IMG/VR virus record: IMGVR_UViG_3300022213_000237
Span: 1-64,000 of that record
DNA length: 64,000 nt
Source of the DNA: a virus
Direction: 5' to 3' (one strand)
Program-made: the position numbers and the translations under genes
In this document: positions 1 through 15,483 of the stretch, in pieces
Numbering within the stretch: the first letter of the stretch is position 1
How the letters are laid out: each line of letters opens with the position of its first letter
The notes under the pieces: model-generated
Told to the model about the DNA's origin: nothing
The model's database searches: none
The model's input: the letters and a program-made list of their open reading frames with translations, nothing else

Positions 1-43
1 TACTGGATGAGCCGGTTAAAAAACTACCGTTGTAAAGCGGCCT

Positions 44-49
44 AATCTT
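44..49 (+). promoter_or_regulatory. Putative late promoter element AATCTT (first of about 14 copies)
   Basis: YAATCT recurs immediately upstream of virion genes throughout the window; here 6 nt before ATG 56. Confidence 0.65.
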
Positions 50-55
50 GGTAGC

Positions 56-2512
56 ATGGAATCGCTACCTCCTGAAGATATTCAGCTGCATAAATCCTTA
101 AAAGGATACACCTTCGGTGAGCCACAACACGAGCCTGAGCTGGGCAGATACACAGTAAAGGCGTATTACGGAAATAATCGAGTAGGAGAGCTGTCATATG
201 CCGACAAGCCACACACTCTTGATTCCAAGCACCCACACGTAGGCTACCATTTAATTAAGGGCGCCGACGTACATCCATCGCATCGCGGCAATGGAGTGTA
301 TGGGCGATTGCTGCAAATCGCCGCCCTTCACGCCAAAAAGACTTTAAAATCTAAAGGTCTAGTTTCTCCCGGAAAATGGCGCTCGGAAGCCGCTGATGGT
401 GCCTGGGAGCGCTTGGCCAGTAAAGGTAAGGCTCGAGGAGTTGCTGGCTATGGTGACCCCGAGACCAAAGACTTTTTTATGTCCGAGGGACCTAGAGTCC
501 TTGGTTCAGGCGAGCTTAGACGCCTAGGTTATTACAACTCTCCTCATGGAGTCTTTCTGTCTGTGCCTATTAATCAGATTCATGGCTTAGATCCAGAACC
601 AAAGGATTGGGTAGACGATAAAGGCGCGGTGCAATCGTTTCAGGCCGGTAATGCTATTAAAACACCTATCGAGCTTCACGTACACCCTTCAGGTGGGTTC
701 ACCCTTTATGACGGCAACCATCGCTTAAAGCAGGCCCGTACTAATGGGCAGACCCATATCTCCGCCTTAGTGCATGACAAATCAAACAATTACGTCGCTT
801 TAAGCCAACAATATCAGCCGGCCCATCTTTTAAAGTCAGAAATGGCGAAGCATGATGGAACCGCCTTGGAACAGATGGGATATCAATTTAAGGTTTCCCA
901 CCTGAAAGATCGGACTGGAAATATTCACAATACTACTGTCAGCGTTACTCATCCCGATGCTTATAAGCTTCACGGCGATGATAAGGTAGGAGCAGTCGAT
1001 TTTGGTCATCATGGTGACAGTTTAGTAGCGGATCAAGTTTGGGTTCACGATGACCATCGAAACCAGGGCATTGCCAGACACATGTATCGTCTTGCGGCCC
1101 AAGCCACCGGTAAAGATATTAAGCCTTCGGAAACTCAAACACAAGCCGGATCTAATTTTTGGCTTCATAAAGGAGAAGAAACCTCTCCAGATAACATTCA
1201 ACACGAATGGGATATTGAGTTCAAACGCTGGCTGAAATCACGCCGTGAAGGTCGTAGCTATGTCCAATTTCATATGGACGTACATAAGGCTGAACAAGGT
1301 CTTAATAGCCTGCTGGGACGCGGCAATCTAAAAGATGCTCCATCGCCTAGTCACCACGATGTGGCTATGGCCATGAATGGATATGACCCCGAAAGCTCAC
1401 CCGAATTCGTGGCCGCCAGATTCCTGGCGGGTGGAAGTTTTGCGTCCGAAGAAGCAGTTCGCACCGCCATTATTCTCTATGACGATGATTTCGAGCTTGC
1501 GGCCCTCCGTACCTACGGCCTGCCCAGAAACGAGCACTATAGGGAATTGCTGCGTAATGCTATGGGACTCATGGGGCATTTGTCAAATGACGTCAAGAAA
1601 TCAGAAATCGACCCGGTAGCTATTCCGAGAGATATTCGAGCCGCTCTTCCTGAGGGGGAGAAACTTGCTGAAGTTGTGCGCAAAGCCCAGGTAGCTGGTA
1701 AAATACATGCGATCCAACTAGACCCCTCCGCTAAACACTCAAAAGGCACAGCCCTTGTTACCGACGTCGATACAGACGAAAAGTGGTTACTCAAGCCCGG
1801 AAGCGGGAAGTTAAGTCCTTCAGCTGGTGTTGCGGATGAGACTGCAGACCAATCGAATCGTGAAGTAGCTTTTACTAAAATTGCTGACGCCGTTGGGATG
1901 GGTCAATACTATCCAGAAGCGGAATTACTTATGATTGACGGCCAGCCCGTGGCATGTCTCAAATTGTTAGATACCGACTATAAAGGCATGGAGAAATTGC
2001 GTCAGGCTGACTCTGACTTCAAGGCCGCAGAATTTTTCAAGCCGTATCTTGAGAATGGAATCCTGTATCGTTGGGCACTTATTGACGGTGTATTAGGAAA
2101 CAGCGACCGACACGCCAACAATTTGATGGTCAATGAAGACGGCAACGACGTGAAGCTCATCGACCACGGCAGCGCCTTCGCGGGAATTCATTTTGACCCT
2201 GCTCACGACACCAAAAGCTTTATTCCGTTTTACTTGCGGGCCTGGAGTGAGGGTCAGCGTTGGAGCAAGATGTATCCTCAACAAAAAGAGGATGCGGTCC
2301 CACGGCTCAACGAGCAACAAGCTAAGGAGTTCGGTGAATGGGTTGATACCATCGACGAGAACCAACTCAAAGAAATCATGGTCAAGTATGGGTTGAATCC
2401 TAAGCCGGTTCTCGACCGTTTACAACGTATTAAAAGTGCTGATGTTTCTCGGCGCGCGGACGTGCTCATAGGCATGTGGGTTGGCGTCTACGATTGGTCC
2501 GCCTTGACCTAA
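56..2512 (+). CDS. Polyvalent protein: GNAT - ParB/Srx-like - GNAT - linker - PI3/4K/HipA-like kinase
   Basis: Acetyl-CoA motifs VHPSHRGNGV and VHDDHRNQGIA; ParB motif PIELH...LYDGNHRL; kinase motifs LLKP, NREVA, GNSDRHANN, LIDHG. Confidence 0.8.
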   Translation: MESLPPEDIQLHKSLKGYTFGEPQHEPELGRYTVKAYYGNNRVGELSYADKPHTLDSKHPHVGYHLIKGADVHPSHRGNGVYGRLLQIAALHAKKTLKSKGLVSPGKWRSEAADGAWERLASKGKARGVAGYGDPETKDFFMSEGPRVLGSGELRRLGYYNSPHGVFLSVPINQIHGLDPEPKDWVDDKGAVQSFQAGNAIKTPIELHVHPSGGFTLYDGNHRLKQARTNGQTHISALVHDKSNNYVALSQQYQPAHLLKSEMAKHDGTALEQMGYQFKVSHLKDRTGNIHNTTVSVTHPDAYKLHGDDKVGAVDFGHHGDSLVADQVWVHDDHRNQGIARHMYRLAAQATGKDIKPSETQTQAGSNFWLHKGEETSPDNIQHEWDIEFKRWLKSRREGRSYVQFHMDVHKAEQGLNSLLGRGNLKDAPSPSHHDVAMAMNGYDPESSPEFVAARFLAGGSFASEEAVRTAIILYDDDFELAALRTYGLPRNEHYRELLRNAMGLMGHLSNDVKKSEIDPVAIPRDIRAALPEGEKLAEVVRKAQVAGKIHAIQLDPSAKHSKGTALVTDVDTDEKWLLKPGSGKLSPSAGVADETADQSNREVAFTKIADAVGMGQYYPEAELLMIDGQPVACLKLLDTDYKGMEKLRQADSDFKAAEFFKPYLENGILYRWALIDGVLGNSDRHANNLMVNEDGNDVKLIDHGSAFAGIHFDPAHDTKSFIPFYLRAWSEGQRWSKMYPQQKEDAVPRLNEQQAKEFGEWVDTIDENQLKEIMVKYGLNPKPVLDRLQRIKSADVSRRADVLIGMWVGVYDWSALT

Positions 2513-2524
2513 TCTTAGGTGCAT

Positions 2525-2830
2525 ATGAATATTACGCCCGAACAAATCAAAGGGAAGCCTAAAAAAGTTGGAGACCTCGAAGACCGTCCGGTGGTTCAGG
2601 TGGAAACCAAAGGCGGCCTCTATCTACTTATGACCAAGAATGCGGCTGGGAAGCCAGTGACTCTTGGAGCGGGTAGCCATCCGGTGGTAGCCGCCCATAT
2701 CGCAGAACGTGACTTCCCGAAGCTGAACCTCACCGAACTTTCGAAGTCCGAACCTCTCGAACCTCAGGTTCTGCGTAATGAATTGGCTACGTGGGTGCCG
2801 TTCACGCGTCGCATGCAGTCGTTGGAGTAA
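2525..2830 (+). CDS. Hypothetical virion-associated protein
   Basis: ORF after AATCTT (2511); LSKSE motif; ATG 2525 preferred over GTG 2519. Confidence 0.55.
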   Translation: MNITPEQIKGKPKKVGDLEDRPVVQVETKGGLYLLMTKNAAGKPVTLGAGSHPVVAAHIAERDFPKLNLTELSKSEPLEPQVLRNELATWVPFTRRMQSLE

Positions 2831-2832
2831 AC

Positions 2833-3651
2833 GTGTCTAAGGGGCCATCAAATCCAATAAACATGACATTCAATCCGGATGTCGTGCACTTCGACCCCGA
2901 AGCCTTTGACCGGCTACTTTCCGGCAATGGTGTGGTGTTGGTGCATTGGAAGGCGATTAAGTGTCCTATCGGCATAATTGATCGTTTTGATGCCCGTAAT
3001 CACTCCGACCATGACTGCTCCAACGGATTTATTTACCGTGTGGCTGGTGAAGTCACGGCATTCTTTTCATCCAATAGTAGTAACACAAAATTAGATGAAA
3101 TGGGGTTTGTCACCGGGTCCACGAGTATGGTTTCGTTGCCCCGTACATACGATAACTCCGAAGAAGAGATAGCGGTCCAGCATTTCGACAGATTTTATTT
3201 AAAAGAGTTTAAGGGGTTTTCTGTCAATTCACAGCTTATCGAAGCAAGTATCACCGGCCTCGACCGCCTCACTTACCAGGCGACTAAAATCGAACACATT
3301 GTGGACCGAAACAATATCTGGTACTCGGCCAACGACTACGTTATTGAAAACGGTGGGGTACGGTGGACGGGCTCGCGTCGTCCACAATACGATCCGGCAA
3401 CAAATACTGGGACCGTGTATTCGATTCGATATCGTTATGTTCCGTTCTGGTACGTAGACAATATCGTCCACGAAGTGAGAGTCGCTAGAGTCTATAATCA
3501 CGCTAAAGAACAAGAAGAGGTTGTACGTCTTCCTTATGCTATTCTCTTACAGCGAGAATACATTTTCGAAAACGAAGAGCGTAAAATGGATGGCACTTCG
3601 GATCCTCGCGACGTACGCGCCCCCAGAACAGGTTCATTTGGTCCACGTTAA
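2833..3651 (+). CDS. Putative neck/head-tail connector protein
   Basis: HWKAIKCP...C..GFIY pattern resembling SPO1/Twort-like neck proteins; GGAG before GTG 2833; position upstream of sheath. Confidence 0.5.
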   Translation: MSKGPSNPINMTFNPDVVHFDPEAFDRLLSGNGVVLVHWKAIKCPIGIIDRFDARNHSDHDCSNGFIYRVAGEVTAFFSSNSSNTKLDEMGFVTGSTSMVSLPRTYDNSEEEIAVQHFDRFYLKEFKGFSVNSQLIEASITGLDRLTYQATKIEHIVDRNNIWYSANDYVIENGGVRWTGSRRPQYDPATNTGTVYSIRYRYVPFWYVDNIVHEVRVARVYNHAKEQEEVVRLPYAILLQREYIFENEERKMDGTSDPRDVRAPRTGSFGPR

Positions 3652-4436
3652 TGTCCTCTCCAGCTTCCATATCTTTTCTGAAGTATGTACTCGGTGACGA
3701 CGGCCACAAGGCTTTCGAGAACGCCAACCACCGATTACCTACTCTTGGCGCCGCGCTAGCACCTAGGACAGTAATTAGCTGGTTGAATACGGCTGTGATG
3801 TCCACTTATGAGGGCGAAATTCCCGGCCTGACCAATAGTTATATCACACTCAACAAGAGTGAGGACGGAACCTTTAGTGGGGCCATTACCGTTGATGATT
3901 CAGTACATTCTTTTACTTCGGCTGACCTGCTTCATGTAGCTGCCGCAGTGACTCTGTCTTTGGGTTTGGGTGATTTACAAATAGACCCGCAAGTTAAATC
4001 CACGGACATAAGCAAACTGGGCAAATCCATCGATATGCTCGTGAAGGCTCGCATCGTGGCCCGAACCGTATTTGAGACCCTTAAGAAGCCGATGGAAAAA
4101 GTCGAGACTCCAGGCTCTGCCGCAGCACCGAAAGAACCTAAGGGCTTTCAAGCTCCTCAGCCACCAACTTCGGTTACGCCCAATACGAATCAAACTGTAA
4201 AGCCACCGATGGTGAAGAAAGAATTGATTATCAAGAAGAGTGAGGCTCATCACGAGTGCCCCGAATGCGGGCTTCGTCAATTCAGAAACGATCGTTTTGT
4301 TGGGTGCCTGTGTTTGCGTTTTTTATCTAAAAATACTACCTCCATAGTGACTCCAGACGGCGACTACAGACTTAAATTGGGTCGTGAATGGGATCAAGAG
4401 TCGGTGGTAATACTAATGGATTCTCTGAGGAAATAA
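3651..4436 (+). CDS. Hypothetical virion protein with C-terminal Zn ribbon
   Basis: CPECG...CLC; Pro-rich linker; TAATG overlap with upstream gene. Confidence 0.55.
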   Translation: MSSPASISFLKYVLGDDGHKAFENANHRLPTLGAALAPRTVISWLNTAVMSTYEGEIPGLTNSYITLNKSEDGTFSGAITVDDSVHSFTSADLLHVAAAVTLSLGLGDLQIDPQVKSTDISKLGKSIDMLVKARIVARTVFETLKKPMEKVETPGSAAAPKEPKGFQAPQPPTSVTPNTNQTVKPPMVKKELIIKKSEAHHECPECGLRQFRNDRFVGCLCLRFLSKNTTSIVTPDGDYRLKLGREWDQESVVILMDSLRK

Positions 4437-4439
4437 ATC

Positions 4440-4826
4440 ATGGCTACGATGCACAAATGGCTAGGCCGCAACATACTCAAAGAAAGTGACGCCACCGGCT
4501 TGGAGAGAGATAGCTCCGCCCACGAGTTTGGTGCCGCACGCCTAGAACGAAAGGCCGCAGAAGAAGCTGCTTATAAAAATTATGAGCGCAAACATCACCG
4601 TGCCGCAGCTCAGCATCATCTTCAGTATATGCGGGCGGCTCGGAACTCCGGTTCTCATGATGTCGCCGAACAACACACCGCCTTGTTTGATTTACATATG
4701 AAGGCTTTGGGTGAACGCCCTGGTTCGACCGCAGTTAGTACGGAAAGTAGTGGCCCAGGAAAAGTCGACAAATTCCATTCACACCCCGCTGACCAACTTT
4801 TAGTCTCGCGTCAGAAGGGGGAGTAA
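4440..4826 (+). CDS. His/Ala-rich hypothetical protein
   Basis: GAGG RBS, operon context. Confidence 0.55.
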   Translation: MATMHKWLGRNILKESDATGLERDSSAHEFGAARLERKAAEEAAYKNYERKHHRAAAQHHLQYMRAARNSGSHDVAEQHTALFDLHMKALGERPGSTAVSTESSGPGKVDKFHSHPADQLLVSRQKGE

Positions 4827-5087
4827 GTGGAAGAGAAAGACGACAGCAATCAACGTTTTTCCGTAACCATAGAAGACTGTAAACGTTGGACCGAACGTTT
4901 ACAGCGAATGGCGAAGACGTTGGAAAAACGTCAAGACGAGAAAGATAGCGAAGAGTACGCGGATGGTATCAAGCTCTTCTACACAGCCAGCGTGTTGATG
5001 CAACGTCTACAGTATGAAATTCAGCAAGATGCTATGTTCTCGTCGGTGCCGCAACCATTCGGCCCTGTCACCGTTGGCGAGTCGTAA
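4827..5087 (+). CDS. Hypothetical protein
   Basis: GGGGAG RBS, abuts upstream stop. Confidence 0.5.
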   Translation: MEEKDDSNQRFSVTIEDCKRWTERLQRMAKTLEKRQDEKDSEEYADGIKLFYTASVLMQRLQYEIQQDAMFSSVPQPFGPVTVGES

Positions 5088-5146
5088 TTAAGGTCTTCCG
5101 ACCGCAATCTTGATGGAGATTTTATCTCTTTAAGAGGCTACCGCCA

Positions 5147-6988
5147 ATGAAAGTCTTTGTTTCCTGGAGTGTCGACCAAATCGAGGGCCTCATTGCCACG
5201 TCGTTGATGAGCGATAACGTTGAAGAACTTCGTCAATTATCGCAAGACCTTAAGCACGCCGCCGATAATCTAAAAGCTTGGTCCATGGCTGTTGGCGGAG
5301 CCCCCATTCTTGACCTTGGTACTTCGGGTGCTGTGGAGGTCCCAGCAGATAGAATGACAGAGTTGCCTGCAATTGCTGAGAAATTTGCTGCCGGCGCAGA
5401 TGCCACACTGTCTGTGGGTGTGGGCATGACGCTGTCCGAAAGTTATACGGCCATGCGTTTTAGTCACCTCAAGGGCGGTGACCAGATTTCTTTGTATCAA
5501 CAGGAAATGGAGCATTTTGTCTCTGGTGCAGATCAGCAATCTGAAGACCCACTCATGGAGTTGGGTAAGTCAGGAAAAGAAGGACAAGAACAACCAGTCG
5601 GTTTTGCTGACGGCCCCGAGGACGAAGCGCCAGGCGACGGTGGACCACAACACGGCGGCGCCAATCCGGCTGAAGGTAATTCCCCTGTCGGTTCTGTACC
5701 AGATGATTCCGCAGATCCAGGCAGCGTCTCCTTTGACCCCGGTTCGCAAGATGCTGCCAATGGCGGCGAAGAACAACCCGGCGAGCAATCCGGCGACCCG
5801 CGCGGCGCCGTGGTGCAGGCGTTACAACAAATCAAAGCCCAGGCCCCAGTTCTCGAGCAAATGCGACAAACTAATCCCGACGCTTTTGAGGCGGTAAAGG
5901 CTGTTGTGGATGCTATGATTGCCATGGCTCAGGGCATGGCGATGGAAGACAATTCTGACGAAGGCGAAGATACAGCTAAGTCGGAATCCATCGGTAAACT
6001 TCCACAAGACCTCGAAGACGATATGTCTCTTCTTGGTGACGAGAAAGCGTGGATGAAGGCGGTTACCACACCGGGAGCCAAGGTAAAGCATGAGCATCTT
6101 GGTTTCGTCGGAACTTTAGTTCGGCCCGCAAAGAATCCAATTAACGGAACCGGTGCAGACCACATGGGGCTAGTCGAGCACGATCTCGGTGGCCAGAAAG
6201 TCCAGCGCTGGTACCCTGCCACGCATTTGAGTCCGCATAGCGATTTAGAGGTTGCGAAGTCTGAAACCTATTATTCGGACGGCGGGCCTCCCGTAACTTT
6301 AGGTAAAACAGATTTACCGGGTGGAGCAGCAGCACCAAAAGCGGCGGCAATGCCAAGCGCTCCACAACCCAGCAAGGCTGCCGCACTTCCTAAAATGGGA
6401 GCCACGGGTGCGCCCCAACTTCACGACAGTGTCGAAGGTTTTATGGGCGGACTGAAGGCCATTCCAAAAGAAAATACGGCTGCACGCGGCAAGTTTTTGA
6501 CCGCACACGCCAACCACGCTCCGTTCCAGACAGCTTTAAGTGCACACCCTCAAGGCGCCCAGGTTCGTGGTATGATGGACAAATTTCTTAACTCCAAAGC
6601 CAATGCGGGCGTGAAGCCAGGAGCGACAGTAACTACGGCTAAAAGTGAATTTGCTAAGGATTTGATGCCAGGGGGAAAGGGAGATAATCTACCTGATTCT
6701 GATTTTGACCCTAAAGACCTTAAAACAGGTCAAGATAAAGAAGAATCTGAACACGGCTTAGACCCTAAAAGAGCTAAAGAAGTCGCTAAAGACCATCTTG
6801 TTGAAAAACCCGACACTTATAAGCAAGAGTGGGCTGTCGGTACACAAAAAGAAGGCAAGATTAAAGTCGAAACCCATGACCCAGTTACTGGCGCCAGCAC
6901 CGGAAAAAAATGGAGATCTGTTCGTGCCGGACAAATAATGGCTGAGGACGGCTCTGCTGTTTCTAGCCGAAATCCTGGGGTTAAATAA
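5147..6988 (+). CDS. Multidomain protein: degenerate mCpol-like domain, low-complexity linkers, DUF5661-like module
   Basis: N-terminus follows the mCpol pattern (S.NVEELRQLS...GG.PI...TLSVGVG.TLSESY.AM.F...KG..QI) without DGD/GGD; GG..D...FDP..L..G...E.EH.....AKEVAKDHL.E.PD.Y near the C-terminus. Confidence 0.65.
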   Translation: MKVFVSWSVDQIEGLIATSLMSDNVEELRQLSQDLKHAADNLKAWSMAVGGAPILDLGTSGAVEVPADRMTELPAIAEKFAAGADATLSVGVGMTLSESYTAMRFSHLKGGDQISLYQQEMEHFVSGADQQSEDPLMELGKSGKEGQEQPVGFADGPEDEAPGDGGPQHGGANPAEGNSPVGSVPDDSADPGSVSFDPGSQDAANGGEEQPGEQSGDPRGAVVQALQQIKAQAPVLEQMRQTNPDAFEAVKAVVDAMIAMAQGMAMEDNSDEGEDTAKSESIGKLPQDLEDDMSLLGDEKAWMKAVTTPGAKVKHEHLGFVGTLVRPAKNPINGTGADHMGLVEHDLGGQKVQRWYPATHLSPHSDLEVAKSETYYSDGGPPVTLGKTDLPGGAAAPKAAAMPSAPQPSKAAALPKMGATGAPQLHDSVEGFMGGLKAIPKENTAARGKFLTAHANHAPFQTALSAHPQGAQVRGMMDKFLNSKANAGVKPGATVTTAKSEFAKDLMPGGKGDNLPDSDFDPKDLKTGQDKEESEHGLDPKRAKEVAKDHLVEKPDTYKQEWAVGTQKEGKIKVETHDPVTGASTGKKWRSVRAGQIMAEDGSAVSSRNPGVK

Positions 6989-7866
6989 TGGCTGATGAAT
7001 TCAGCTTAGTGCTGGATCTCAAACCAATTATCCAGCTGTCGAAGGACATGACGCAAGAGCTTCAGAAGAAGCTTGAAGTCGCGGCTCGTAACCTATCTCT
7101 ACAAGCACACGCGCACGTGAAAGAACGAGCGGCAGCGACTCTTCATACACGTCTCGAGATGTTTAACGACAACCTCGAATACGAGCAAATTGATAAAAGC
7201 ACGTACGCTGTGGTAGTGAAACAGAAGGGACGCTGGATCGAAGATGGTATGGAGCCGCATGCCATGCTAGATGACCTGCTTTCAAGCCCTAAGGCAAAAC
7301 GCTCGAAAGACGGTGGTAAATATTTAGTTGTTCCCTTCAAACACAATAAGGGTCCCACCAAGACTACGCCCGCGCAGAAAAACCTTCTAGGTGCTCTTAA
7401 GAAAGAATTAAAAGCTCAGAAAATCCCTTACGGGCAGATTGAGCGCAACCCCGATGGTTCTCCAAAGACGGGGCTACTTCATAAATTTGACTTAAATGCA
7501 CCAAATCGCAATCGACCAGGCGCAGGCCAACAAGGAGCTGTAGGTCATGCTACGGCCACGCATTCGCCGCATGGCGTCGGTGAGCACGGACCCGAGGGCC
7601 GACCTTATCTTTGGGGTGTTCGCATTTACCAGCACCTCAAGAAGAATCCCGACGGCAGCGTAAAGACGGACAAAAAGGGTAATGCTCAAGCCAGCAGAGA
7701 GATTTTTACTTTCCGTGTAGCCTCATCTAAGCAACAGGGTAATAAGTGGTTTCATCCCGGCTTGGCCCCAGCTCATCTTCTCGACGAAGCCTATGAGTGG
7801 GCAAAACGAACCTGGGATGAACAAATAGCTCCAGAACTGCTTCTAGGCTTTGGCGAAAACAAGTAG
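6988..7866 (+). CDS. Putative neck/tail-completion virion protein
   Basis: YLVVPF...FRVAS...W.HPG pattern as in Twort/SPO1-like virion proteins; synteny. Confidence 0.5.
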   Translation: MADEFSLVLDLKPIIQLSKDMTQELQKKLEVAARNLSLQAHAHVKERAAATLHTRLEMFNDNLEYEQIDKSTYAVVVKQKGRWIEDGMEPHAMLDDLLSSPKAKRSKDGGKYLVVPFKHNKGPTKTTPAQKNLLGALKKELKAQKIPYGQIERNPDGSPKTGLLHKFDLNAPNRNRPGAGQQGAVGHATATHSPHGVGEHGPEGRPYLWGVRIYQHLKKNPDGSVKTDKKGNAQASREIFTFRVASSKQQGNKWFHPGLAPAHLLDEAYEWAKRTWDEQIAPELLLGFGENK

Positions 7867-7910
7867 AGAGCTTGACATCCTTGGATCTTATACGGTATAA
7901 GCTAAATGCT

Positions 7911-8228
7911 ATGTACGCGGCCACGATCTCAAGCTACACACTTAACATGCGGTACTGGTGGATTGCCATGTTTGCGGTCACGCTCCAAGCCTTTGATGCC
8001 TGGGCTACTTTGACCGAAATTGCGTGCGGAGCCGCCACCGAAGCCAACCCCATCATGGCCCACAGCTTGCCCACATTTTTTGCCATGAAAATACTGGCCA
8101 CGGGATGGATCGCTCTATTGGCTGTGAATAGCTGGCATAAATGGGCACGTGCAGGGCTCTGGATTGTAATGTTGGTTTACAGTCTAGTCGCTATATACCA
8201 CATCTGGGGACTTACCCACTGTTTATAG
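7911..8228 (+). CDS. DUF5658-like small membrane protein
   Basis: D..AT......A.EANPIM motif and hydrophobic helices; own TTGACA(7872)-18-TATAAG promoter. Confidence 0.6.
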   Translation: MYAATISSYTLNMRYWWIAMFAVTLQAFDAWATLTEIACGAATEANPIMAHSLPTFFAMKILATGWIALLAVNSWHKWARAGLWIVMLVYSLVAIYHIWGLTHCL

Positions 8229-8564
8229 CGGTACGATTCGTAGTTCGCCGTCTCCGACTTGCGCAAGCTGCATCCCGCCAGTATTCAGAAGCATGTTAAC
8301 GAGTGTGAGTGCAACATTAAGACAGTCGTTGGCCGAGGCCCTGTCTTGTGGATGTTGGGCGTCAAAAACTTCACACCGTTCCTGTAGTACGTTTACTAAG
8401 GCGAGAGCAGATTCCCTAGTCCATTCCGCTCTGTAGCCGGTGGGCTCGAGGCCCATGGCTAGTTGTTCTCGTAATCGGTCAATGTCCGATGCCGCCTTCT
8501 CCAAGCGATTCTTTTGTTCGTCGGCTGCGGCTGCAAAAGCATTACATAGTTCTTCTGGTGTCAT
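8223..8564 (-). CDS. Hypothetical protein
   Basis: GAGG RBS; GATC-class motif at 8598. Confidence 0.55.
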   Translation of the reverse strand: MTPEELCNAFAAAADEQKNRLEKAASDIDRLREQLAMGLEPTGYRAEWTRESALALVNVLQERCEVFDAQHPQDRASANDCLNVALTLVNMLLNTGGMQLAQVGDGELRIVPL

Positions 8565-8625
8565 TTATCAAGCCTCTAAGAAACTTAGTAGCTGCTCGAT
8601 CTTACAGCCTTAATCTTTTGGGAGT

Positions 8626-9621
8626 ATGATTCGAACGGGAACAAATGGCGTCTTCCAGAGTGATGTCCTCATTCGCGCCGCCATTATTGCCGGTATAGAC
8701 GAGATTAGACAGAAGCCGTGGCTGCTTGATTACGTCTTTTCTTGGTTACCGAACGATCCGTTAACATCAAAAACGTACGGGGCGAAAGAATTACAAGAAG
8801 CCAAAAATTGGTTCCTGTCGACCGAAGTAGCGGTTGTAATGGCCTATCGTACAGACCAACCTCAATTGCCGTGCATTGGAATCGAGCTAGTTGAGTCCAC
8901 AGAAGCTCATGCTACCATAGGCGACGTACATTACGAGACTTCAGAAGACGTTGCCGCGAACGAGGTAGCTATTGAGCCCGACAAAATCGTAGGCCCATTT
9001 ACCCCCAAAGCTTACGATATCGAAACGGGTATTGTAACTATGCCCGATAATCAGTCGACGGCCAAAGTTTTTGCCGGCATGTATATTTTTGATACGGTAG
9101 CAAATAGAGGGTATCAGATTTCGGAAGTTCTGTCCGACCAGACCTTTAAACTCGACGACGGGACTAAAGCCAATTTTACGAATTGCTATATAGCTGGGCG
9201 TGATGCGTTCTGGACCATACCTCTATACAGTATGGTTTTTCGCGAAAGCTACCGCATGCGGTGTTTCGTTACTGCTAGTCCCATACATTTGAGTTTTCTC
9301 TACTCCGTATTGTTGTTCGTGTTGATGCGCGGAAAGAAAGACCTCCTTGAAGCCAGAGGATTTGAAAACTTTACCATAGCTGGTTCTGGGTTTGCTGGCG
9401 CACAAATGCCCAATAATCCTGAGATGATCTTCACGAGAGACATTACGGTTACTGGCATTGTGCGTCAATATTGGCCAGGTAATCCGGGACGTAAGCTTGA
9501 TGGAATCCTGGTGGATTCGTCAATTATGGATAGTGGTAAATCGCCGAATGGTATAGCGGAATTCGTTTCCGAACAAGGTTGGGAATTGGAAGATGATCAA
9601 TTTGGAGCCCTTAGGGAATAA
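8626..9621 (+). CDS. Putative tail terminator/completion protein
   Basis: LPCIGI...E....IGD pattern, late motif at 8612, position two genes before the sheath. Confidence 0.5.
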   Translation: MIRTGTNGVFQSDVLIRAAIIAGIDEIRQKPWLLDYVFSWLPNDPLTSKTYGAKELQEAKNWFLSTEVAVVMAYRTDQPQLPCIGIELVESTEAHATIGDVHYETSEDVAANEVAIEPDKIVGPFTPKAYDIETGIVTMPDNQSTAKVFAGMYIFDTVANRGYQISEVLSDQTFKLDDGTKANFTNCYIAGRDAFWTIPLYSMVFRESYRMRCFVTASPIHLSFLYSVLLFVLMRGKKDLLEARGFENFTIAGSGFAGAQMPNNPEMIFTRDITVTGIVRQYWPGNPGRKLDGILVDSSIMDSGKSPNGIAEFVSEQGWELEDDQFGALRE

Positions 9622-9668
9622 GCGCGCCAGAGCCCCAATCTTGGAAAAGAGTTTTAGGAGAATACTTC

Positions 9669-11432
9669 ATGTCTGATATCAAGACCCCAGCCGATGTAGC
9701 CGCCGAGTTAACAAAAGCACTTGGCGAGAAGATCGACACCTTGAAGAAAATGGAACTTCCCCAGTCGCCCGAAAAGGCTGATGGCGGTCAAGAATCATCG
9801 GGTTCAATCCCCGCCATGCCTAAACAAGCAGGCGGAACCACTGATGCCGAAATGGCGAAAGATGAAGTCGTTTCTGTGAAAAGGGCAGAATGCCCTGGTT
9901 GTGGCAAGAAATCTGCCCAAGAGCATGAAGGTGTCTCTGGACGCAAGATGGTAGCCATTTGCGGTAATTGCAAGAAGCGAAACGTCGGCAACGTAAAAAA
10001 GATGGACCTTCCTGCGTCGCCAGAAGCGGCTACCGGCGGCGAGATCGCAAAGAAATCAGAACTCGACGCTCTAGATTTTGCCCAGGCGCTCAGCAAAGCC
10101 GTGGTGGAAAAAATCGCGGGCGTGCGCGAACAACTTGAGAAAATGGAGCGACTCGAAGCCGCAGGTAACGAGGATTTAGCTAAAGGTCTTAAGTCCAAGG
10201 GCGTCAAAAAGAATATTGGGTCACTGCCCAGCAATACGCCATCGAATAAGCAAATTGCGGATGGCGATCCTAACAAATCGCATCCAATGCCTAAGTCGGT
10301 ATTCGATATCATGAATAAGGGCGAAGGTAAATTCCTGCCCTGGGCTAAAGGCACTAAGAAGCCAAAAGTAGGAAAAGAAGTAGAAGCTGAAGGCAGTGGC
10401 GGAAGTGATACCACTAAGCCCGGACCTTCACTTCAAAAGGACGCCCTTCCTGTAGCCAAGCCACCGAAGATGCCAGCTCTTAAGCCCGCAGGTGTGCCTG
10501 GCGCCAAAGCTGGTGACGCACCCAAGGCTCCTAAGGCGCCAGGTGCCCCCGGACAGACTGGTAGTACGATGAAAATGGAACTTCCTCAGTCCCCTGAAAA
10601 GGCGGGTGGTGGTGACATGGCAAGTGGCTCTGTGCCCGCTATGCCCAAACAGGCCGGTGGAACCACCGACGCAGAGATGGAAAAAGAGGAGATGTCTCCG
10701 GAAGAAACCAACATCGCCGAAGAATCGTCTGCAGAAGAAACACATATGGGTAAGGATGAATTGCCCCAAACTCCTGAAAAAGCGATTGGCGGTCAAGAGT
10801 CTTCTGGATCTATTCCCGCTATGCCTAAACAAGCAGGAGGAGCTACTGACGCGGAGATGAAGAAGAACGCTTTGCCTCCCAATCACGCAAGTCCCGTATT
10901 TGCGGTCCATGCTTCTGTTTTCGGTAATAAAGCCGCACCTGGAGACCCTCACGGCGGCAAATCAGGATACTTAATCACCCAGGCTCTACCTAAACTTAAA
11001 CCTGCGGCTGCGGGTATGCATACCGTGGGTCAAGATGGACCTCCTACGCCGGCACCTGGCGATATGGGTGCTGGTAACAAGACAGTTAACCTTCGTTCGC
11101 CGGTCGGAAAATCCGAAGACATGGCTAAGGGCGTGTTTTCTCAGGCGGCACAACATTCAGACCCTTCTTTTGCGTCGCATGCGGCCAGCAAAGCTGCGGC
11201 AGCGCCAGCAGCAAAACCTGCACCCATGGGTGGGCCGAACGATGCCCGCGCAGCAGCGTTTTCAGCGGCATTAGCGGGAGAATTTCAACCCAAAGCTCCT
11301 ATTAAGACCGGACTCGAGCTGGCACATCCTAAAGCCGCCAACTTGCCGAAATTCGGCAAAGCTGAACTGGATAGCGTCAAGTGTCCAGGATGTAAGCAAG
11401 GCATGACCCTTTGTAAGTGTGGATCCAAGTAA
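9669..11432 (+). CDS. Low-complexity, repeat-containing protein (internal head/scaffold-like)
   Basis: K/A/P/G/E-rich; three 37-aa repeats; CxxC pairs; AGGAG RBS; late motif at 9637. Confidence 0.6.
   Translation: MSDIKTPADVAAELTKALGEKIDTLKKMELPQSPEKADGGQESSGSIPAMPKQAGGTTDAEMAKDEVVSVKRAECPGCGKKSAQEHEGVSGRKMVAICGNCKKRNVGNVKKMDLPASPEAATGGEIAKKSELDALDFAQALSKAVVEKIAGVREQLEKMERLEAAGNEDLAKGLKSKGVKKNIGSLPSNTPSNKQIADGDPNKSHPMPKSVFDIMNKGEGKFLPWAKGTKKPKVGKEVEAEGSGGSDTTKPGPSLQKDALPVAKPPKMPALKPAGVPGAKAGDAPKAPKAPGAPGQTGSTMKMELPQSPEKAGGGDMASGSVPAMPKQAGGTTDAEMEKEEMSPEETNIAEESSAEETHMGKDELPQTPEKAIGGQESSGSIPAMPKQAGGATDAEMKKNALPPNHASPVFAVHASVFGNKAAPGDPHGGKSGYLITQALPKLKPAAAGMHTVGQDGPPTPAPGDMGAGNKTVNLRSPVGKSEDMAKGVFSQAAQHSDPSFASHAASKAAAAPAAKPAPMGGPNDARAAAFSAALAGEFQPKAPIKTGLELAHPKAANLPKFGKAELDSVKCPGCKQGMTLCKCGSK
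9750..10865 (+). repeat. Three dispersed 111-nt coding repeats (9750-9860, 10575-10685, 10755-10865)
   Basis: (M/D)ELPQ(S/T)PEKAxGG..SGS(I/V)PAMPKQAGGxTDAEMxK. Confidence 0.9.
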
Positions 11433-11480
11433 ACACTTTTAAAACCTAATCTACCGCACAGGTAACAGGAGAATTTCCAA

Positions 11481-14366
11481 ATGGCACAGAGCTACCAAAC
11501 TGATTCCGCAACACTGTATCTTCCGGGAGCATACCCAGAAATTAAGGTGCAGCAGCAACAGAGCGGACTCCCTACGACAGGAATTATTTTCCTGGTAGGT
11601 GAAGCCGAAGCCGGCCCGTCATTCGACGAAGAGTCGGATCTCTCGTTGAATTTCTTCGCACCCACGGAAATGAGCGAAGTTATTGCCAAATACAAATCTG
11701 GTCGATTGGTTGATGCCTTCCGTGCCGCCGCTAATCCAGCCAAAGACGTCAACATCACTGGATCTCCTTCTTTTATCTACTGCATCAAAACCAATCAAGG
11801 GGCCAAAGCTTCTTTGGCCTTGTCTCGTTCTGGGTTAACCGATTACGGTACTCTGTACGATAAATCGTACGGCGCACTAGGTAACCTGCTTTATTCTCAG
11901 GTCTCTGCCTCACAAGCAGAAGTAGCTCCAGAGACGGGGTTGCTGACCTACATCCCCCTACCAAGCTTAGGTGGCAGCGATTCCGCAAACGTTGGCGTAC
12001 GTGTGAATGGTGGAGCAAAAAGCGCTATCACCGTTTCTGCACGCACCTCTCCAGCCAGCCTTGCGGCTCAATTCAATGCCGTTGACGGTCTTGAGTTAGT
12101 CGGTGGTGTAGATCGAGATATTTTAGACGGTGTAAGCGCGCCCGACACCCTCGGCCTCGTGGCTTCAGGTAATGCCGTCACTATTACCGTTAGCTCTGCT
12201 TGGGGTAATGCCCCGACCGTTGGCGATACGATGATTATCGCTCGTGACACCACGTATGGTAACACCGCAGATTCAGTTATCGACGGTGCCGGCGGTGAAA
12301 ACTTCGGAGCCTACATAGTAACTGCTGTTACCACAAATACTATTCAGGCAACCAAACTCCGAGACGACGATGCCTCGGGAGCGCCTACTGCGCCTGCAAC
12401 CGTTGCACCGGTTTCGCTCAGCGGCACCCCGGCCAACGACCTGAAGTGCTTTAGCCCGATTAACTTCAAAGTTATGACCGGCGTGGATCGAGGAATGTTG
12501 GATGTGAATACGGTCGGCAACGATGTCACCGGCACCGCTTCTGGATCATCCTTGACTGTGGTCCTCGAAACTGGTTTTGCTTGGGCAGCTCTTCCTCAGG
12601 TTGGCGACATTGTCAAAATTCCTTCTTCGGCTCCTGCCGGAATTAAAGGCGGCGGCTCGGAAAACGTAGGCAAATACGTTGTCACTGCCGCAACTACTGG
12701 GACTGGTGCCGGTGAGTCTAGCGTGACCATGACTCGCATCAGCAACGGCGACCCCGTTAGCTTCGGAGCCACGGCACTCGCTGCGGCCACGGATATCGTT
12801 TGTCTACGACCTGTAATGGATGGCGTTGGAAAGGTGTTGGAATTGACCGATAACGCCGGTTCTGTTGCAGCCGCTCAGCAATTCTTTGAAACCGATGGCA
12901 CCGCCGCCGATATTCTTTCTGCTTCTGGAGACGTGCTTCTCTGGACTTCAGCATCGGAACAAATCGTGCGCCTGAATGTCACGCGCCAATCTGACGGTAC
13001 GGCAGAAGCAATCACCGCTGGTGGCGATATCGTGCTGAAAATAGGGTACAAGGGAACCACGGCCACAATGACTTTTGATGGCACGGACCTCACCACCACT
13101 GTTGTGGGCGGGACCGGAGCTTCGTTGACCGGCGCGAGCGCGCTGAAGATTAGTCAATTCAAGACGCTGTCTGATTTGGCACAATTCATTAACTCCAAGA
13201 CCGGATATTCCTGTTCCGTGGGCAGCGCCCTGTATGGCCAACTGTCTCCCACGATTCTGGACTACGGCACTTTCTCGATTTGTTCTGACATTGCTGGTAG
13301 TCAGCCTGGAAGAATTAAGCGCGATGCTCAACGCTTCTTCGATCAAGTGTCGACCAATAGCGGAACCGTGCAGCTTGGCGATCCGGCAGAACGTGCGGAT
13401 GCAGGTCTTCCGGAAGCTCAGGCCATTTCTTATCTGGCCGGTGGAACCCTTGGAGCCACCACCGCGACTCAAGCGGCGGCGGCCATCGACGCCCTCAGCA
13501 AGTTGCGCGGCAACTTCGTAGTCACTCTCTTCTCGCGAGATGCGACAGACGATATTGCAGACGGTCTAACCGATTCTGCTTCTTCATACGAAATCGATGC
13601 CATCAACGCTGCGGTTTCGAGTCACGTTTTGGCCATGAGCAAGCTGAAAACTCGTCGTCATCGTCAAGGCTTCGTTTCCTTCCGTGGAAGCTTTGCTGAC
13701 GCCAAACTTGCGGCCCAGAATATCGCCAACTACCGCGTGTCGATGCAATTCCAAGATGTCAAAGCTTTGTCGTCTGACGGATCTATTGTTCAGTTCCAAC
13801 CTTGGATGGCTTCCGTATACGCGGCAGGCATGCAAGCGGCTGGATTCTACCGTTCACTTGTTTTCAAAGGTCTTGACGCTTCAGGCGCTCTGATGGCAGA
13901 TGGTTCGTTTACGGACCAAGACGATGCAGACTTAGAAGCTGCGGTCACCAACGGTCTCATGGCCATTGAGCGTCCAGTTACGGGCGGTATTCGCTGGAAC
14001 ACTGACCAGACCACTTACGCTGTTGACGGTAGCTTCGTCTTCAACTCGGTGCAGGCTATCTACGCTTCCGACACTATCGCGCTCACCGTTGCTCAACGAA
14101 TGGAAAATGCATTCGTAGGTCAGTCCGTGGCCGACGTTTCCGCCTCCGTGGCTCTTGCGTATCTGCAAGGAATCATGGCCGACATGAAACGACTCAAGTT
14201 GATCGCCGGCTCAGACGATGCCCCACTTGGATACCGAAATGCGCAGATTGTCATCTCCGGTAACGCCATGAAGGTACAGCTAGAAATCAAACTCGCGGGC
14301 GCAATCCTCTTTATCCCGATCACGTTCCTGGTAACCCAGGTTCAGCAGTCGGCTTCACAGCAATAA
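11481..14366 (+). CDS. Contractile tail sheath protein with inserted beta domains
   Basis: N-terminal YLPGAY...LVGEAEAGP; sheath-type C-terminal domain ending I.FIPITF; upstream of tube gene. Confidence 0.9.
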   Translation: MAQSYQTDSATLYLPGAYPEIKVQQQQSGLPTTGIIFLVGEAEAGPSFDEESDLSLNFFAPTEMSEVIAKYKSGRLVDAFRAAANPAKDVNITGSPSFIYCIKTNQGAKASLALSRSGLTDYGTLYDKSYGALGNLLYSQVSASQAEVAPETGLLTYIPLPSLGGSDSANVGVRVNGGAKSAITVSARTSPASLAAQFNAVDGLELVGGVDRDILDGVSAPDTLGLVASGNAVTITVSSAWGNAPTVGDTMIIARDTTYGNTADSVIDGAGGENFGAYIVTAVTTNTIQATKLRDDDASGAPTAPATVAPVSLSGTPANDLKCFSPINFKVMTGVDRGMLDVNTVGNDVTGTASGSSLTVVLETGFAWAALPQVGDIVKIPSSAPAGIKGGGSENVGKYVVTAATTGTGAGESSVTMTRISNGDPVSFGATALAAATDIVCLRPVMDGVGKVLELTDNAGSVAAAQQFFETDGTAADILSASGDVLLWTSASEQIVRLNVTRQSDGTAEAITAGGDIVLKIGYKGTTATMTFDGTDLTTTVVGGTGASLTGASALKISQFKTLSDLAQFINSKTGYSCSVGSALYGQLSPTILDYGTFSICSDIAGSQPGRIKRDAQRFFDQVSTNSGTVQLGDPAERADAGLPEAQAISYLAGGTLGATTATQAAAAIDALSKLRGNFVVTLFSRDATDDIADGLTDSASSYEIDAINAAVSSHVLAMSKLKTRRHRQGFVSFRGSFADAKLAAQNIANYRVSMQFQDVKALSSDGSIVQFQPWMASVYAAGMQAAGFYRSLVFKGLDASGALMADGSFTDQDDADLEAAVTNGLMAIERPVTGGIRWNTDQTTYAVDGSFVFNSVQAIYASDTIALTVAQRMENAFVGQSVADVSASVALAYLQGIMADMKRLKLIAGSDDAPLGYRNAQIVISGNAMKVQLEIKLAGAILFIPITFLVTQVQQSASQQ

Positions 14367-14379
14367 TCTCTAGGGTATA

Positions 14380-15012
14380 ATGATAGTGTATGGATTAACA
14401 GATCCACGTACGAATGAACTTCGATACGTGGGAAAGACGGATAAGGGGCTGGAGGTAAGGCTTCAGCAGCACTTACAGCCGGCATATCTGCGTCCAAATA
14501 CACACAAAAACGCTTGGATAAAATTACTTAAGCGGGAAGCCCTGAGACCAGATATTTTTGTAATTGAAGAAACGCAAGACCCAGAAGCTGAACAATTTTG
14601 GATCTCGTATTACAAATCTATTGGTTGTGATTTAACGAACGGTACAGTTGGTGGCGAAGGATGGAAGGTTGGCACCAAGCATTCGGAAGCCGCTAAGAAA
14701 AAGATTTCTGAGGCTCATATGGGTCGCAAGAAAGAATATGAGACTTGGAATAAGGGTAAGACTGGGATCTATTCTGAAGAAACATTGAAGAAAATGTCTG
14801 AATCTAAACTTCATCGAAGTTTTAGCGCAGAAACTAGAGAAAAGATCTCAAAAGCACATGGCGGTAAGTCAATCATCGATAGTAACGGTGTAGTTTATCC
14901 CACCATAGCCGAAGCTGCACGGCGCCTTAAGTTGCAGGAATCAAACATTAATGCAGTAATAAAGGGCCGCGCCCGCCAAACTGGCGGATATACGTTTAAG
15001 TACGCGGAATAA
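14380..15012 (+). mobile_element. Free-standing GIY-YIG homing endonuclease (NUMOD3 + NUMOD1/HTH)
   Basis: VYGL.DP...RYVGKT...RL.QH; HSEAAKKKISEAH repeats; YPTIAEAARRL...GGYTFKY. Confidence 0.85.
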
Positions 15013-15021
15013 GGTGACATT

Positions 15022-15483
15022 TTGGGGACCACGGCGAAAACAATGCACGGATCGCGTGCGCAGGTAATGATAGACGGTAAAATCATTGGTATTTTTACTA
15101 ACGTAAGCTACGGCGTACGTTACGATGCCAATCCCGTCCACATTCTCGGTCGCTTTTCGGCTGCAGAAATCGTGCTCTCGGGTATGGAGCCCGTCTCAGT
15201 TGATTGCACGGGCTTCCGTGTTGTCGACAATGGCCCTTATAAGGTGGCTTCGGTTCCGCGACTTCAGGACCTACTGAATCACGAGGACATCACCCTCGCT
15301 ATCTTCGATCGTCAATCGGGGGAGCAAATCATGACCGTAGTAGGTGTACGCCCCACCGGGTATAGCACCTCAGTCGCGTCTCGCGGTATACAGGACCTGA
15401 CTGTCAATTTCATGGGCTTGCGTCTCTCTGACGAGAATGACCCGAACGGTCAGGACGAAACTCCAGGGGCGACGGAATTCTAA
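15022..15483 (+). CDS. Tail tube protein
   Basis: 153 aa after the sheath; G.RAQV.IDG.IIG pattern typical of myophage tubes; TTG start uncertain. Confidence 0.8.
   Translation: MGTTAKTMHGSRAQVMIDGKIIGIFTNVSYGVRYDANPVHILGRFSAAEIVLSGMEPVSVDCTGFRVVDNGPYKVASVPRLQDLLNHEDITLAIFDRQSGEQIMTVVGVRPTGYSTSVASRGIQDLTVNFMGLRLSDENDPNGQDETPGATEF

What the first reader, a model, noticed from the sequence alone, without database searches (positions are those of the whole stretch)
5147..5497. Catalytically degenerate mCpol (minimal CRISPR polymerase) domain in a late, probably virion, protein
Seen: residues 1-117 follow the mCpol pattern end to end, but the expected DGD is SVD and the palm GGD is LGT. Known: mCpol domains are Cas10/GGDEF-related nucleotide second-messenger synthases in bacterial anti-phage systems (for example Panoptes OptS). 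Inference: a phage-carried dead mCpol could bind or sequester the signal or poison host mCpol oligomers, which would be an undescribed counter-defence; an LGK|S site shortly after it could release the domain.
Basis: partly seen in the sequence, partly recalled or inferred. Interest (0 to 1): 0.8.

Follow-up and report, generated by a model that had tools for sequence, protein, structure and literature searches.

The report
Dead mCpol domain on phage head-cargo protein
A late gene of an uncultured relative of Myxococcus phage Mx1 starts with a true copy of the bacterial "minimal CRISPR polymerase" signalling enzyme that has lost its catalytic residues; it belongs to a large, undescribed phage family in which most members keep those residues.

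Summary
Residues 1-~124 of ORF 5147..6988 (613 aa) pass Pfam's mCpol threshold. They match Panoptes OptS directly by sequence, and the fold superposes on OptS crystal structures (TM 0.84-0.88, rmsd 1.6 A). Both catalytic aspartates of KpOptS (D6, D57) are replaced (S8; T59/S60), and about ten further active-site positions are lost.

New here: the gene belongs to a large phage family (1135 cluster representatives). The shared build is N-terminal mCpol, helical block, variable cargo domains and a conserved 55-aa C-terminus, placed just upstream of the neck and tail genes. About four in five of the best representatives keep DGD and GGDEG. The Mx1-like clade is a single, well-supported dead clade, and there are at least seven further changes of state.

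A hydrophobic-x-K-S/A(-E) motif is confined to structural-block proteins.

The dead domain stays under purifying selection and is predicted to homodimerise through the former active-site face. I read it as a non-catalytic self-association module. The sponge or poison idea is untested and disfavoured. Other notes of this scan on the same genome had already flagged the cleavage motif and the phage's intact GGDEF cyclase.

The parts
5147..6988 (+). Whole gene, 613 aa (P0001): dead mCpol, linker, helical block, variable modules, conserved C-terminus
   Evidence: ORF list and translation; family alignment A3; full-length model with folded modules 1-131, 216-268, 422-489, 508-555 and 556-608 separated by disordered linkers
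5147..5518 (+). Residues 1-124: mCpol-fold pseudo-cyclase domain
   Evidence: Pfam PF18182 above cut-off; OptS hits by sequence and by fold; 60-81% identity within the clade against 26-59% in the linker
5168..5176 (+). S8-V9-D10, in place of the DGD of strand beta1 (KpOptS catalytic D6 faces S8)
   Evidence: PMC12657218
5315..5326 (+). L57-G58-T59-S60, in place of GGDE on the beta-hairpin (KpOptS catalytic D57 faces T59 or S60)
5561..5572 (+). L139-G140-K141|S142: conserved candidate protease site just after the domain
   Evidence: L139 and K141 invariant; motif present after the domain in 145 of 155 representatives against about 40 expected; motif enriched in the structural block. Cleavage itself is inferred.
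5573..5782 (+). Residues 143-212: acidic, Pro/Gly-rich disordered linker
   Evidence: pLDDT below 50; low conservation
5783..5989 (+). Residues 213-281: conserved three-helix block, ending in T276-A-K278-S-E280
   Evidence: hmmsearch finds this block in 149 of 160 family proteins; K278, S279 and E280 invariant or nearly so
6257..6265 (+). K371-S-E373 (VAK|SE), candidate protease site
6410..6613 (+). Residues 422-489: small helical module also found in other phage proteins (P0020-P0022; precomputed Pfam T4_Y16D on P0020)
6641..6649 (+). K499-S-E501 (TAK|SE), candidate protease site
6668..6811 (+). Residues 508-555: DUF5661-like helical module (below the Pfam cut-off)
   Evidence: PF18905 E 0.02-0.06 here, E 3e-5 in homologue P0016; tblastn match to Virus Rctr197k
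6821..6985 (+). Residues 559-613: conserved beta-rich C-terminal block (W589, R593, G595, SSRNP)
   Evidence: Found in 134 of 160 family proteins; a single copy in this genome; no fold assignment
6988..7866 (+). Downstream gene (its start overlaps the stop codon), 292 aa, syntenic partner; HK97 gp10-like neck or tail-completion protein is a lead only
   Evidence: phrog_16819; same order in Mx1, L003 and L004; Atlas leads to HK97-gp10_like
56..2512 (+). Upstream cargo-like enzyme, 818 aa: GNAT acetyltransferase plus PI3/PI4-kinase-like region (the kinase match is 25.9 bits, just under the 27.1 cut-off); carries two KSE sites
   Evidence: Pfam; KSE list

Best explanation
ORF 5147..6988 encodes a modular late protein of an Mx1-like myovirus. 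Its first ~124 residues are a true mCpol (Cas10/GGDEF-type palm) domain that has lost the cyclase active site, so it is a pseudo-enzyme. The protein belongs to a large phage family with a fixed build: mCpol, a conserved L-x-K|S/A site, an acidic linker, a helical block ending in x-K|S-E, variable cargo modules, and a conserved 55-aa C-terminus. Most members look catalytically competent. Catalysis was lost once in the Mx1-like clade and several more times elsewhere. Inferred: the protein is packaged into the prohead and cut by the prohead protease at four hydrophobic-x-K|S sites (after K141, K278, K371 and K499). That would free the dead domain as a piece of about 15.6 kDa. Inferred: the retained function of that piece is self-association. 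It would form a homodimer through the face that was the active site, now lined by clade-specific L20, L28, L55 and L57 and a K36-D56 contact. This would serve assembly, packaging or a regulatory role rather than nucleotide synthesis. Cyclase capacity in this clade is supplied by a separate, intact GGDEF protein encoded in the head module. Firm: fold, family membership by profile, loss of catalytic residues, phage late-module context, and purifying selection. Inferred: packaging, cleavage, dimerisation and the non-catalytic role.
For: Fold and homology.
Loss of D8, D59/E60 and of G9, G13, G17, G38, N39, G57, Y80 and K107, which are conserved at 0.93 or more in 121 intact representatives.
Family size and shared build: 1135 representatives at E<=1e-3. 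Among the 160 proteins held, the helical block is in 149 and the C-terminal block in 134.
Intact members are phage genes in the same position, upstream of a ~290-aa gene, sheath and tube.
The dead clade of 22 representatives is monophyletic (SH-aLRT support 99), with at least 8 changes of state among 154 representatives.
Purifying selection: the domain is 60-81% identical in the clade, against 26-59% in the linker.
Motif: 18 of 19 KSE tripeptides of the proteome lie in the structural block (P 4e-10). Mx1 shows 17 of 18 (P 6e-5). Permuted tripeptides are not clustered. [LMF]xK[SA] is enriched (39 of 87 against 26% of residues, P 1e-4) and the controls are flat. The protein encoded directly upstream of the capsid gene (read as the scaffold from position only) carries four KSE, and the capsid protein has LRK|A at residues 12-15. 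This protein has exactly four such sites, all at borders of the AF2 modules. The site after the domain is present in 145 of 155 representatives.
Homodimer: ipSAE 0.46 against a best control of 0.00. That mark was reached by 20 of 30 proteins solved as pairs of one chain and by 1 of 23 solved as single chains. The runs agree in at least 97% of contacts and the partner's pLDDT is at least 88. The interface is residues 12-36, 53-64 and 95-100. It contains 4 of the 7 clade-specific conserved positions (hypergeometric P 0.03).
Intact GGDEF protein in the head module: RRGGDEF motif, PF00990 E 4.6e-11.
Against: There are no virion proteomics for this phage or for Mx1, so packaging and cleavage rest on motif statistics and gene order.
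The prohead-protease domain could not be confirmed with Pfam, PHROGs or PDB sequence searches. It rests on the Mx1 GenBank annotation.
The homodimer pass may reflect the model's memory of OptS structures, and my own alignment was used.
R29, S32 (KpOptS base-contact S30), D10 and E98 are still conserved, so some nucleotide contact is not excluded.
The GGDEF co-occurrence amounts to one clade, that is, one evolutionary event.
A purely structural role does not explain why most relatives keep an intact active site.
Confidence: 0.5

Rival explanations
1. Counter-defence pseudo-enzyme. The dead domain, freed in the capsid and ejected with the DNA, binds host cyclic nucleotides as a sponge. Alternatively it forms dead hetero-oligomers with host mCpol or other palm cyclases, which blocks or misfires nucleotide-based immunity.
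For: The domain is a true OptS homologue. OptS active sites are built from two protomers (PMC12657218), so a dead subunit could in principle poison an oligomer. The base-contact helix keeps R29 and S32. The protein is probably ejected cargo. The cultured relative Mx1 is not restricted by the M. xanthus CBASS/type III-B island that restricts Mx4 (PMC11506125).
Against: The phosphate- and metal-binding positions are all lost. The predicted interface uses clade-specific hydrophobic residues in place of the GGDE hairpin of active mCpols, which favours self-pairing over mixed pairing. A sponge for mCpol products would trigger Panoptes rather than defeat it (PMC12657218, PMC12657230). The host and its defence systems are unknown. 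No binding data exist.
Confidence: 0.13
2. Regulatory partner of the phage's own cargo. The dead palm domain pairs with, or tunes, the intact phage GGDEF cyclase (G000 156109..157335) or other packaged enzymes, as pseudo-enzyme and enzyme pairs do elsewhere.
For: Both lie in the structural block. The KSE/LxK[SA] processing-type motif was listed in the mCpol protein. Both are palm-fold domains that work as dimers.
Against: No test of the pairing was run. The homodimer prediction already satisfies the interface. The co-occurrence may be simple shared ancestry.
Confidence: 0.1
3. Non-functional relic. The domain is decaying after loss of catalysis and is kept only because it is the N-terminus of an otherwise needed protein.
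For: Catalytic residues were lost at least eight times in the family, so catalysis is dispensable.
Against: The domain is as conserved as, or more conserved than, the helical and C-terminal blocks across a clade that has diverged to about 45-66% overall identity. It has no indels, its model has pLDDT 93, and it has acquired its own invariant positions.
Confidence: 0.08
4. Still an enzyme. It would use non-canonical acidic residues (D10, D56, E64, D68) for nucleotidyl transfer or a related reaction.
For: D10, D56 and D68 are conserved at 0.87 or more in the clade.
Against: Both metal ligands proven essential in KpOptS are absent, and so is the conserved Lys107 (PMC12657218). D56 is predicted to contact K36 of the other copy at the interface.
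Confidence: 0.05

Closest known systems
Panoptes OptS / mCpol (KpOptS, PDB 9MNR, 9PD0; mCpol 9NWN)
   Same: Same Pfam family by profile, direct sequence match, same minimal palm fold (TM 0.84-0.88). The predicted dimer puts the base-contact helix of one copy against the hairpin of the other, as in the OptS active pair.
   Different: Phage-encoded. It is the N-terminus of a 613-aa modular late protein. Both catalytic Asp and most active-site positions are lost. No S-2TM-beta, CARF-TM or SAVED effector gene is next to it, so it is not part of a Panoptes operon.
Phage and plasmid 'polyvalent proteins' with GGDEF or RelA/SpoT domains (Iyer et al. 2017, PMC5512222)
   Same: Multi-domain phage proteins that string unrelated enzyme modules together. 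They are thought to be delivered with the DNA, and some carry a cyclic-nucleotide synthase domain. The variable modules here recur in annotated polyvalent proteins.
   Different: The synthase here is mCpol, not GGDEF. It always sits at the N-terminus of a fixed frame (helical block plus C-terminal block), next to neck genes rather than fused to MuF or portal. In this clade it is dead.
T4 Alt and internal proteins IPI-III (packaged, cut by the prohead protease gp21, injected)
   Same: Works like them by inference: enzymes encoded in the structural block that carry a short recurrent protease motif shared with the putative scaffold and the capsid protein.
   Different: No sequence relation. The motif is hydrophobic-x-K|S/A rather than L/I-x-E|. 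Neither packaging nor cleavage has been shown.
Degenerate GGDEF domains kept as non-catalytic modules (for example FimX and the GdpP GGDEF-like domain)
   Same: A palm-fold cyclase domain that lost its catalytic motif but stays conserved for binding, regulation or oligomerisation.
   Different: Those usually keep a nucleotide-binding function that has been shown by experiment. Here the nucleotide-binding positions are mostly gone and no ligand is known.

Membership tests
mCpol domain family (Pfam PF18182) | Profile match above the curated cut-off | tested here: met
   31.8 bits for residues 1-117 and 26.5 bits for the whole protein, against a cut-off of 26.4; 30.4 bits in the genome scan
mCpol domain family (Pfam PF18182) | Minimal RRM-like palm fold as in OptS | tested here: met
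   Model pLDDT 93.4; best PDB matches are OptS chains, TM 0.84-0.88, rmsd 1.6 A
Active mCpol cyclase (OptS-type enzyme) | Metal-binding Asp on strand beta1 (KpOptS D6; the first D of DGD) | tested here: not met
   S8 in this protein; S, T, C, Q, V or E across the clade
Active mCpol cyclase (OptS-type enzyme) | Acidic residue on the beta-hairpin (KpOptS D57; GGDE in phage relatives) | tested here: not met
   L57-G58-T59-S60; no acidic residue in either alignment register
Active mCpol cyclase (OptS-type enzyme) | Synthesis of cyclic oligonucleotides from NTPs | not testable with these tools
   Needs an enzyme assay
Panoptes defence system (optS-optE) | mCpol gene in an operon with a nucleotide-sensing membrane effector (S-2TM-beta, CARF-TM or SAVED-TM) | tested here: not met
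   The neighbours are phage virion, neck and tail genes. No such domains were found in ORFs 56..11432 by Pfam or PHROGs
Phage mCpol-headed late protein family (defined here) | N-terminal mCpol, then an L-x-K-S/A site, a helical block and a conserved 55-aa C-terminus, encoded upstream of neck and tail genes | tested here: met
Polyvalent proteins (Iyer et al. 2017) | Several unrelated effector domains in one phage polypeptide, delivered with the DNA | tested here: inconclusive
   The build is multi-module and the modules are shared with annotated polyvalent proteins. This copy has no recognisable active enzyme domain, and delivery has not been shown.

The most novel reading that the evidence does not exclude
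Large Mx1-like myoviruses package an mCpol cyclase into the head and inject it. It would flood the cell with the 'all is well' nucleotides that keep Panoptes-type guard effectors off, or otherwise rewrite host cyclic-nucleotide signalling. The dead clade, this window included, would have turned the same domain into a dominant-negative or decoy subunit that acts on host or phage palm cyclases. That would make it the first viral counter-measure built from the guard system's own synthase.
Probability: 0.12. Interest if true: 0.85.

Novelty: new variant of a known kind. Interest (0 to 1): 0.62.

Why it matters
mCpol has so far been described only as a host enzyme. It is the constitutive synthase of the Panoptes guard systems, and the 2025-2026 papers I could search and read do not mention viral copies. 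This work shows a large phage family that carries mCpol at the head of a probable capsid-cargo protein. Most members keep the catalytic motifs, and several lineages have lost them while keeping the fold.

This gives two testable questions. First, do phages inject a cyclase that feeds or jams inhibitory-signal defence? Second, what does a conserved dead copy do? The cultured relative Mx1 (WNM70340.1) and its host M. xanthus make both questions accessible at the bench.

The motif statistics also give a predicted cleavage code (hydrophobic-x-K|S/A) for a whole set of packaged enzymes: GNAT-kinase, GNAT-NUDIX, the protease polyprotein and this protein.

Tried and rejected
PHROGs gave nothing for the whole protein or for the domain.

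tblastn against 50,697 phage records found only Mx1, plus one short DUF5661-like match.

A scan of IMG/VR with the domain alignment returned one further locus (L009), so contig-level co-occurrence could not be done there.

The genome search could not reach the metagenome records behind L003 and L004. The presence or absence of GGDEF in phages with an intact mCpol was therefore judged only from contig lengths.

The C-terminal block has no informative Atlas neighbour; all TM scores were 0.50 or lower.

The N-terminus of the 1362-aa 'prohead protease' protein gave no Pfam, PHROG or PDB sequence match, so the protease family is unconfirmed.

The C-terminal block is not a general packaging tag, because it occurs once in this genome.

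I first took KSE alone as the motif and read LGK|S as outside it. After widening to hydrophobic-x-K-S/A and testing that, I dropped this view.

No literature hit for 'anti-Panoptes', and no proteomics paper for Mx1.
Full report
WHAT IS THERE

The window is the first 64 kb of a 169,567-bp virus record. It is collinear with Myxococcus phage Mx1 (OR576727.2), and the homologue of the gene in question is WNM70340.1, annotated 'hypothetical protein'. ORF 5147..6988 (+) encodes 613 residues.

Residues 10-116 match Pfam PF18182 (mCpol) almost end to end, covering profile positions 7-113 of 114. Residues 1-117 alone score E 2e-7 and 31.8 bits against a curated cut-off of 26.4. A plain phmmer search of PDB sequences finds the two mCpol/OptS sequences as the only significant hits (9nwn_B E 9e-5, 9mnr_A E 4e-4).

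An AlphaFold2 model of residues 1-124, built on 18 homologues, has mean pLDDT 93.4. Its six best Foldseek matches in the PDB are all OptS/mCpol chains (9mnr_A TM 0.84/0.88, rmsd 1.6 A). GGDEF domains and Cas10 palms follow.

IS THE DOMAIN DEAD?

The Panoptes paper shows that KpOptS needs Asp6 and Asp57, which hold the metals that bind the triphosphate (PMC12657218). In the HMMER alignment D6 faces S8 and D57 faces S60. In the family profile, DGD reads SVD and GGDE reads LGTS. The register at the hairpin differs by one residue between the two alignments, but neither gives an acidic residue.

I then compared 121 relatives with intact motifs against the 23 members of the dead clade, column by column. 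The intact set conserves D8, G9, D10, G13, G17, I35, G38, N39, G57, G58, D59, E60, Y80, L103 and K107 at 0.93 or more. K107 corresponds to the conserved Lys of the GGDEF 'AK..GRN' segment; that correspondence comes from my own knowledge. The dead clade has lost all of these except D10, and G58 only partly.

The dead clade has also gained its own conserved positions: L20, L28, K43, L55, L57, M70 and M121. Loss of cyclase activity is thus well supported by sequence, though it has not been assayed.

THE FAMILY

A profile search of 1.84 billion cluster representatives found 1135 proteins at E<=1e-3 (800 at 1e-10, 186 at 1e-30). In nearly all of the best 150, the domain occupies residues 1-123 of a protein of 200-1300 residues.

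The region between the two blocks varies in length and content. It includes GNAT, DUF3293, DUF5661, Zn-ribbon-like segments and a module also found in 'large polyvalent protein', lysin and NUDIX genes of cultured phages.

Two intact members were located on contigs. Both are phage genes followed by a ~290-aa gene, a ~325-aa gene, the sheath and the tube, as in the window and in Mx1. Among cultured phages in the collection, only Mx1 has the family.

I built a tree on the domain with the trait columns removed. The Mx1-like dead clade (22 representatives) is a single group with support 99, and a second dead clade of five also has support 99. At least eight changes of state are needed among 154 representatives. 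OptS, Cas10 and GGDEF all carry the acidic residues, so loss is the parsimonious direction; the tree itself is unrooted.

CONTEXT: LATE, AND PROBABLY HEAD CARGO

The gene order upstream is as follows, running across the ends of the linear record:
- terminase and portal;
- a 1362-aa protein annotated in Mx1 as prohead protease, carrying a PI3/4-kinase-like domain;
- an intact GGDEF protein (RRGGDEF);
- a 308-aa protein, read as the scaffold from its position directly upstream of the capsid gene;
- the major capsid protein (phrog_752);
- a GNAT-NUDIX protein (841 aa);
- a GNAT plus PI3/4-kinase-like protein (window 56..2512; the kinase match is just under the Pfam cut-off);
- a virion structural protein (phrog_1004);
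- three small ORFs, and then this gene.

Downstream, the next gene starts on the stop codon and resembles HK97 gp10-like neck proteins (a lead only). A terminator-like protein, the sheath (phrog_279) and the tube follow.

The tripeptide KSE, usually preceded by a hydrophobic residue two positions before the K, is almost confined to this block. In this genome 18 of 19 occurrences lie there, in 26% of the residues (P 4e-10). In the first 80 kb of Mx1 the figure is 17 of 18 (P 6e-5). Permuted tripeptides show no such bias.

The wider motif [LMF]-x-K-[SA] is also enriched (39 of 87, P 1e-4). Variants with R in place of K, with T/V or D/E after K, or in reversed order are not enriched. The putative scaffold has four KSE, and the capsid protein has LRK|A at residues 12-15.

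Other first-stage notes on this genome had proposed the same L-x-K|S/A code. I tested it as described and it holds statistically. Actual cleavage has not been shown, and I could not confirm the protease domain by profile search.

In this protein the motif occurs exactly four times: L139-G-K141|S, T276-A-K278|S-E, V369-A-K371|S-E and T497-A-K499|S-E. Each lies at a border between folded modules of the full-length model. The site just after the mCpol domain is present in 145 of 155 family representatives, dead and intact alike, against about 40 expected.

WHAT THE DEAD DOMAIN MOST LIKELY DOES

Within the clade the domain is 60-81% identical. That is as high as or higher than the other two conserved blocks, and far above the linker (26-59%) and the variable part. 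It is therefore under purifying selection and is not a relic.

A two-copy complex prediction passed. The ipSAE was 0.46, against 0.00 for the best of three controls. That mark was reached by 20 of 30 proteins solved as pairs of one chain and by 1 of 23 solved as single chains. The runs agree in at least 97% of contacts and the partner's pLDDT is at least 88. The pass may owe something to the solved OptS oligomers, so it shows likeness rather than proof.

The interface comprises residues 12-36, 53-64 and 95-100. The base-contact helix of one copy lies against the former catalytic hairpin of the other, which is the geometry described for the OptS active pair (PMC12657218). Here, however, the hairpins touch directly (58:58, 59:57). 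Four of the seven clade-specific conserved residues (L20, L28, L55, L57) are in the interface (P 0.03), and D56 pairs with K36.

My reading is that the active-site cleft has been converted into a permanent self-association surface. The domain would survive as an oligomerisation, assembly or regulatory module of a packaged protein.

The clade also carries an intact GGDEF cyclase in the head module. None of four long contigs with an intact mCpol appears in the GGDEF homologue list. This is compatible with functional replacement, but it is one clade and therefore one event.

THE COUNTER-DEFENCE IDEA

The idea cannot be tested here. Several points argue against a sponge. The metal- and phosphate-binding positions are gone. 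The cleft is predicted to be closed. Sequestering mCpol products is exactly what triggers Panoptes (PMC12657218, PMC12657230). Against poisoning host mCpol, the interface residues differ from those of active mCpols.

Some points remain in its favour. R29 and S32 (KpOptS S30) are still conserved. The protein is probably ejected. Mx1 is not restricted by the M. xanthus CBASS/type III-B island (PMC11506125). I give this reading about 0.13.

COMPARISON AND NOVELTY

By profile and fold this is a member of the mCpol domain family. It is not an active OptS-type enzyme, since two defining residues were tested and not met. It is not part of a Panoptes operon.

It works most like a degenerate GGDEF-type pseudo-enzyme set on a T4-Alt-like or polyvalent-protein-like cargo frame. 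GGDEF domains in phage polyvalent proteins were noted in 2017 (PMC5512222). I found no mention of phage mCpol, intact or dead, in the Panoptes literature or elsewhere in the library.

I class the finding as a new variant of a known kind. The dead copy alone is of moderate interest. The family behind it, which looks like packaged phage mCpol cyclases, is what deserves follow-up.

Noticed in passing
G000 143000-169567 plus window 1-15500 (for example window 56..2512, 2519..2830, 3651..4436, 9669..11432): Hydrophobic-x-K-S-E and L-x-K-S/A motifs are almost confined to structural-block proteins. KSE is 18 of 19 here (P 4e-10) and 17 of 18 in Mx1. This is probably the prohead-protease cleavage code, marking a set of packaged enzymes.
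   Followed up: yes
G000:C1:156109-157335 (L008:6110-7336), outside the window: A 408-aa protein with an intact GGDEF domain (RRGGDEF, DLNDF) fused to a DUF3293/S-AdoMet-lyase-like domain. It is encoded between the protease polyprotein and the capsid gene, and Mx1 annotates its homologue as 'nucleotide cyclase'.
   Followed up: partly
window 56-2512; G000:C1:166943-169468; G000:C1:151534-155622: Three large multi-enzyme proteins lie inside the structural block: GNAT plus a PI3/4-kinase-like region (that match is just under the Pfam cut-off), GNAT plus NUDIX, and a 1362-aa 'prohead protease' with a PI3/4-kinase-like domain. They look like polyvalent, ejected cargo.
   Followed up: partly
window 4440-4826: The 128-aa ORF upstream of the gene resembles, by eye (no alignment was run), the N-terminus of P0021 from another ~162-kb contig. 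There it is fused to the helical module found at residues 422-489 of the mCpol protein. This suggests module shuffling among these late proteins.
   Followed up: no
window 14380-15012: A homing endonuclease (NUMOD3 and I-HmuI-like domains, phrog_314) is inserted between the tail sheath gene and the tube-like gene.
   Followed up: no
window 7872-8228: A small DUF5658 protein whose sequence looks hydrophobic (membrane-like by eye; no prediction was run) is encoded between the gp10-like gene and the terminator-like gene. That is an odd place for a membrane protein.
   Followed up: no
G000:C1:160656-162416 (L008:10657-12417): A 586-aa protein with several HTH domains and a weak REase-like match lies directly after the capsid gene. 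It may be a mobile insertion.
   Followed up: no
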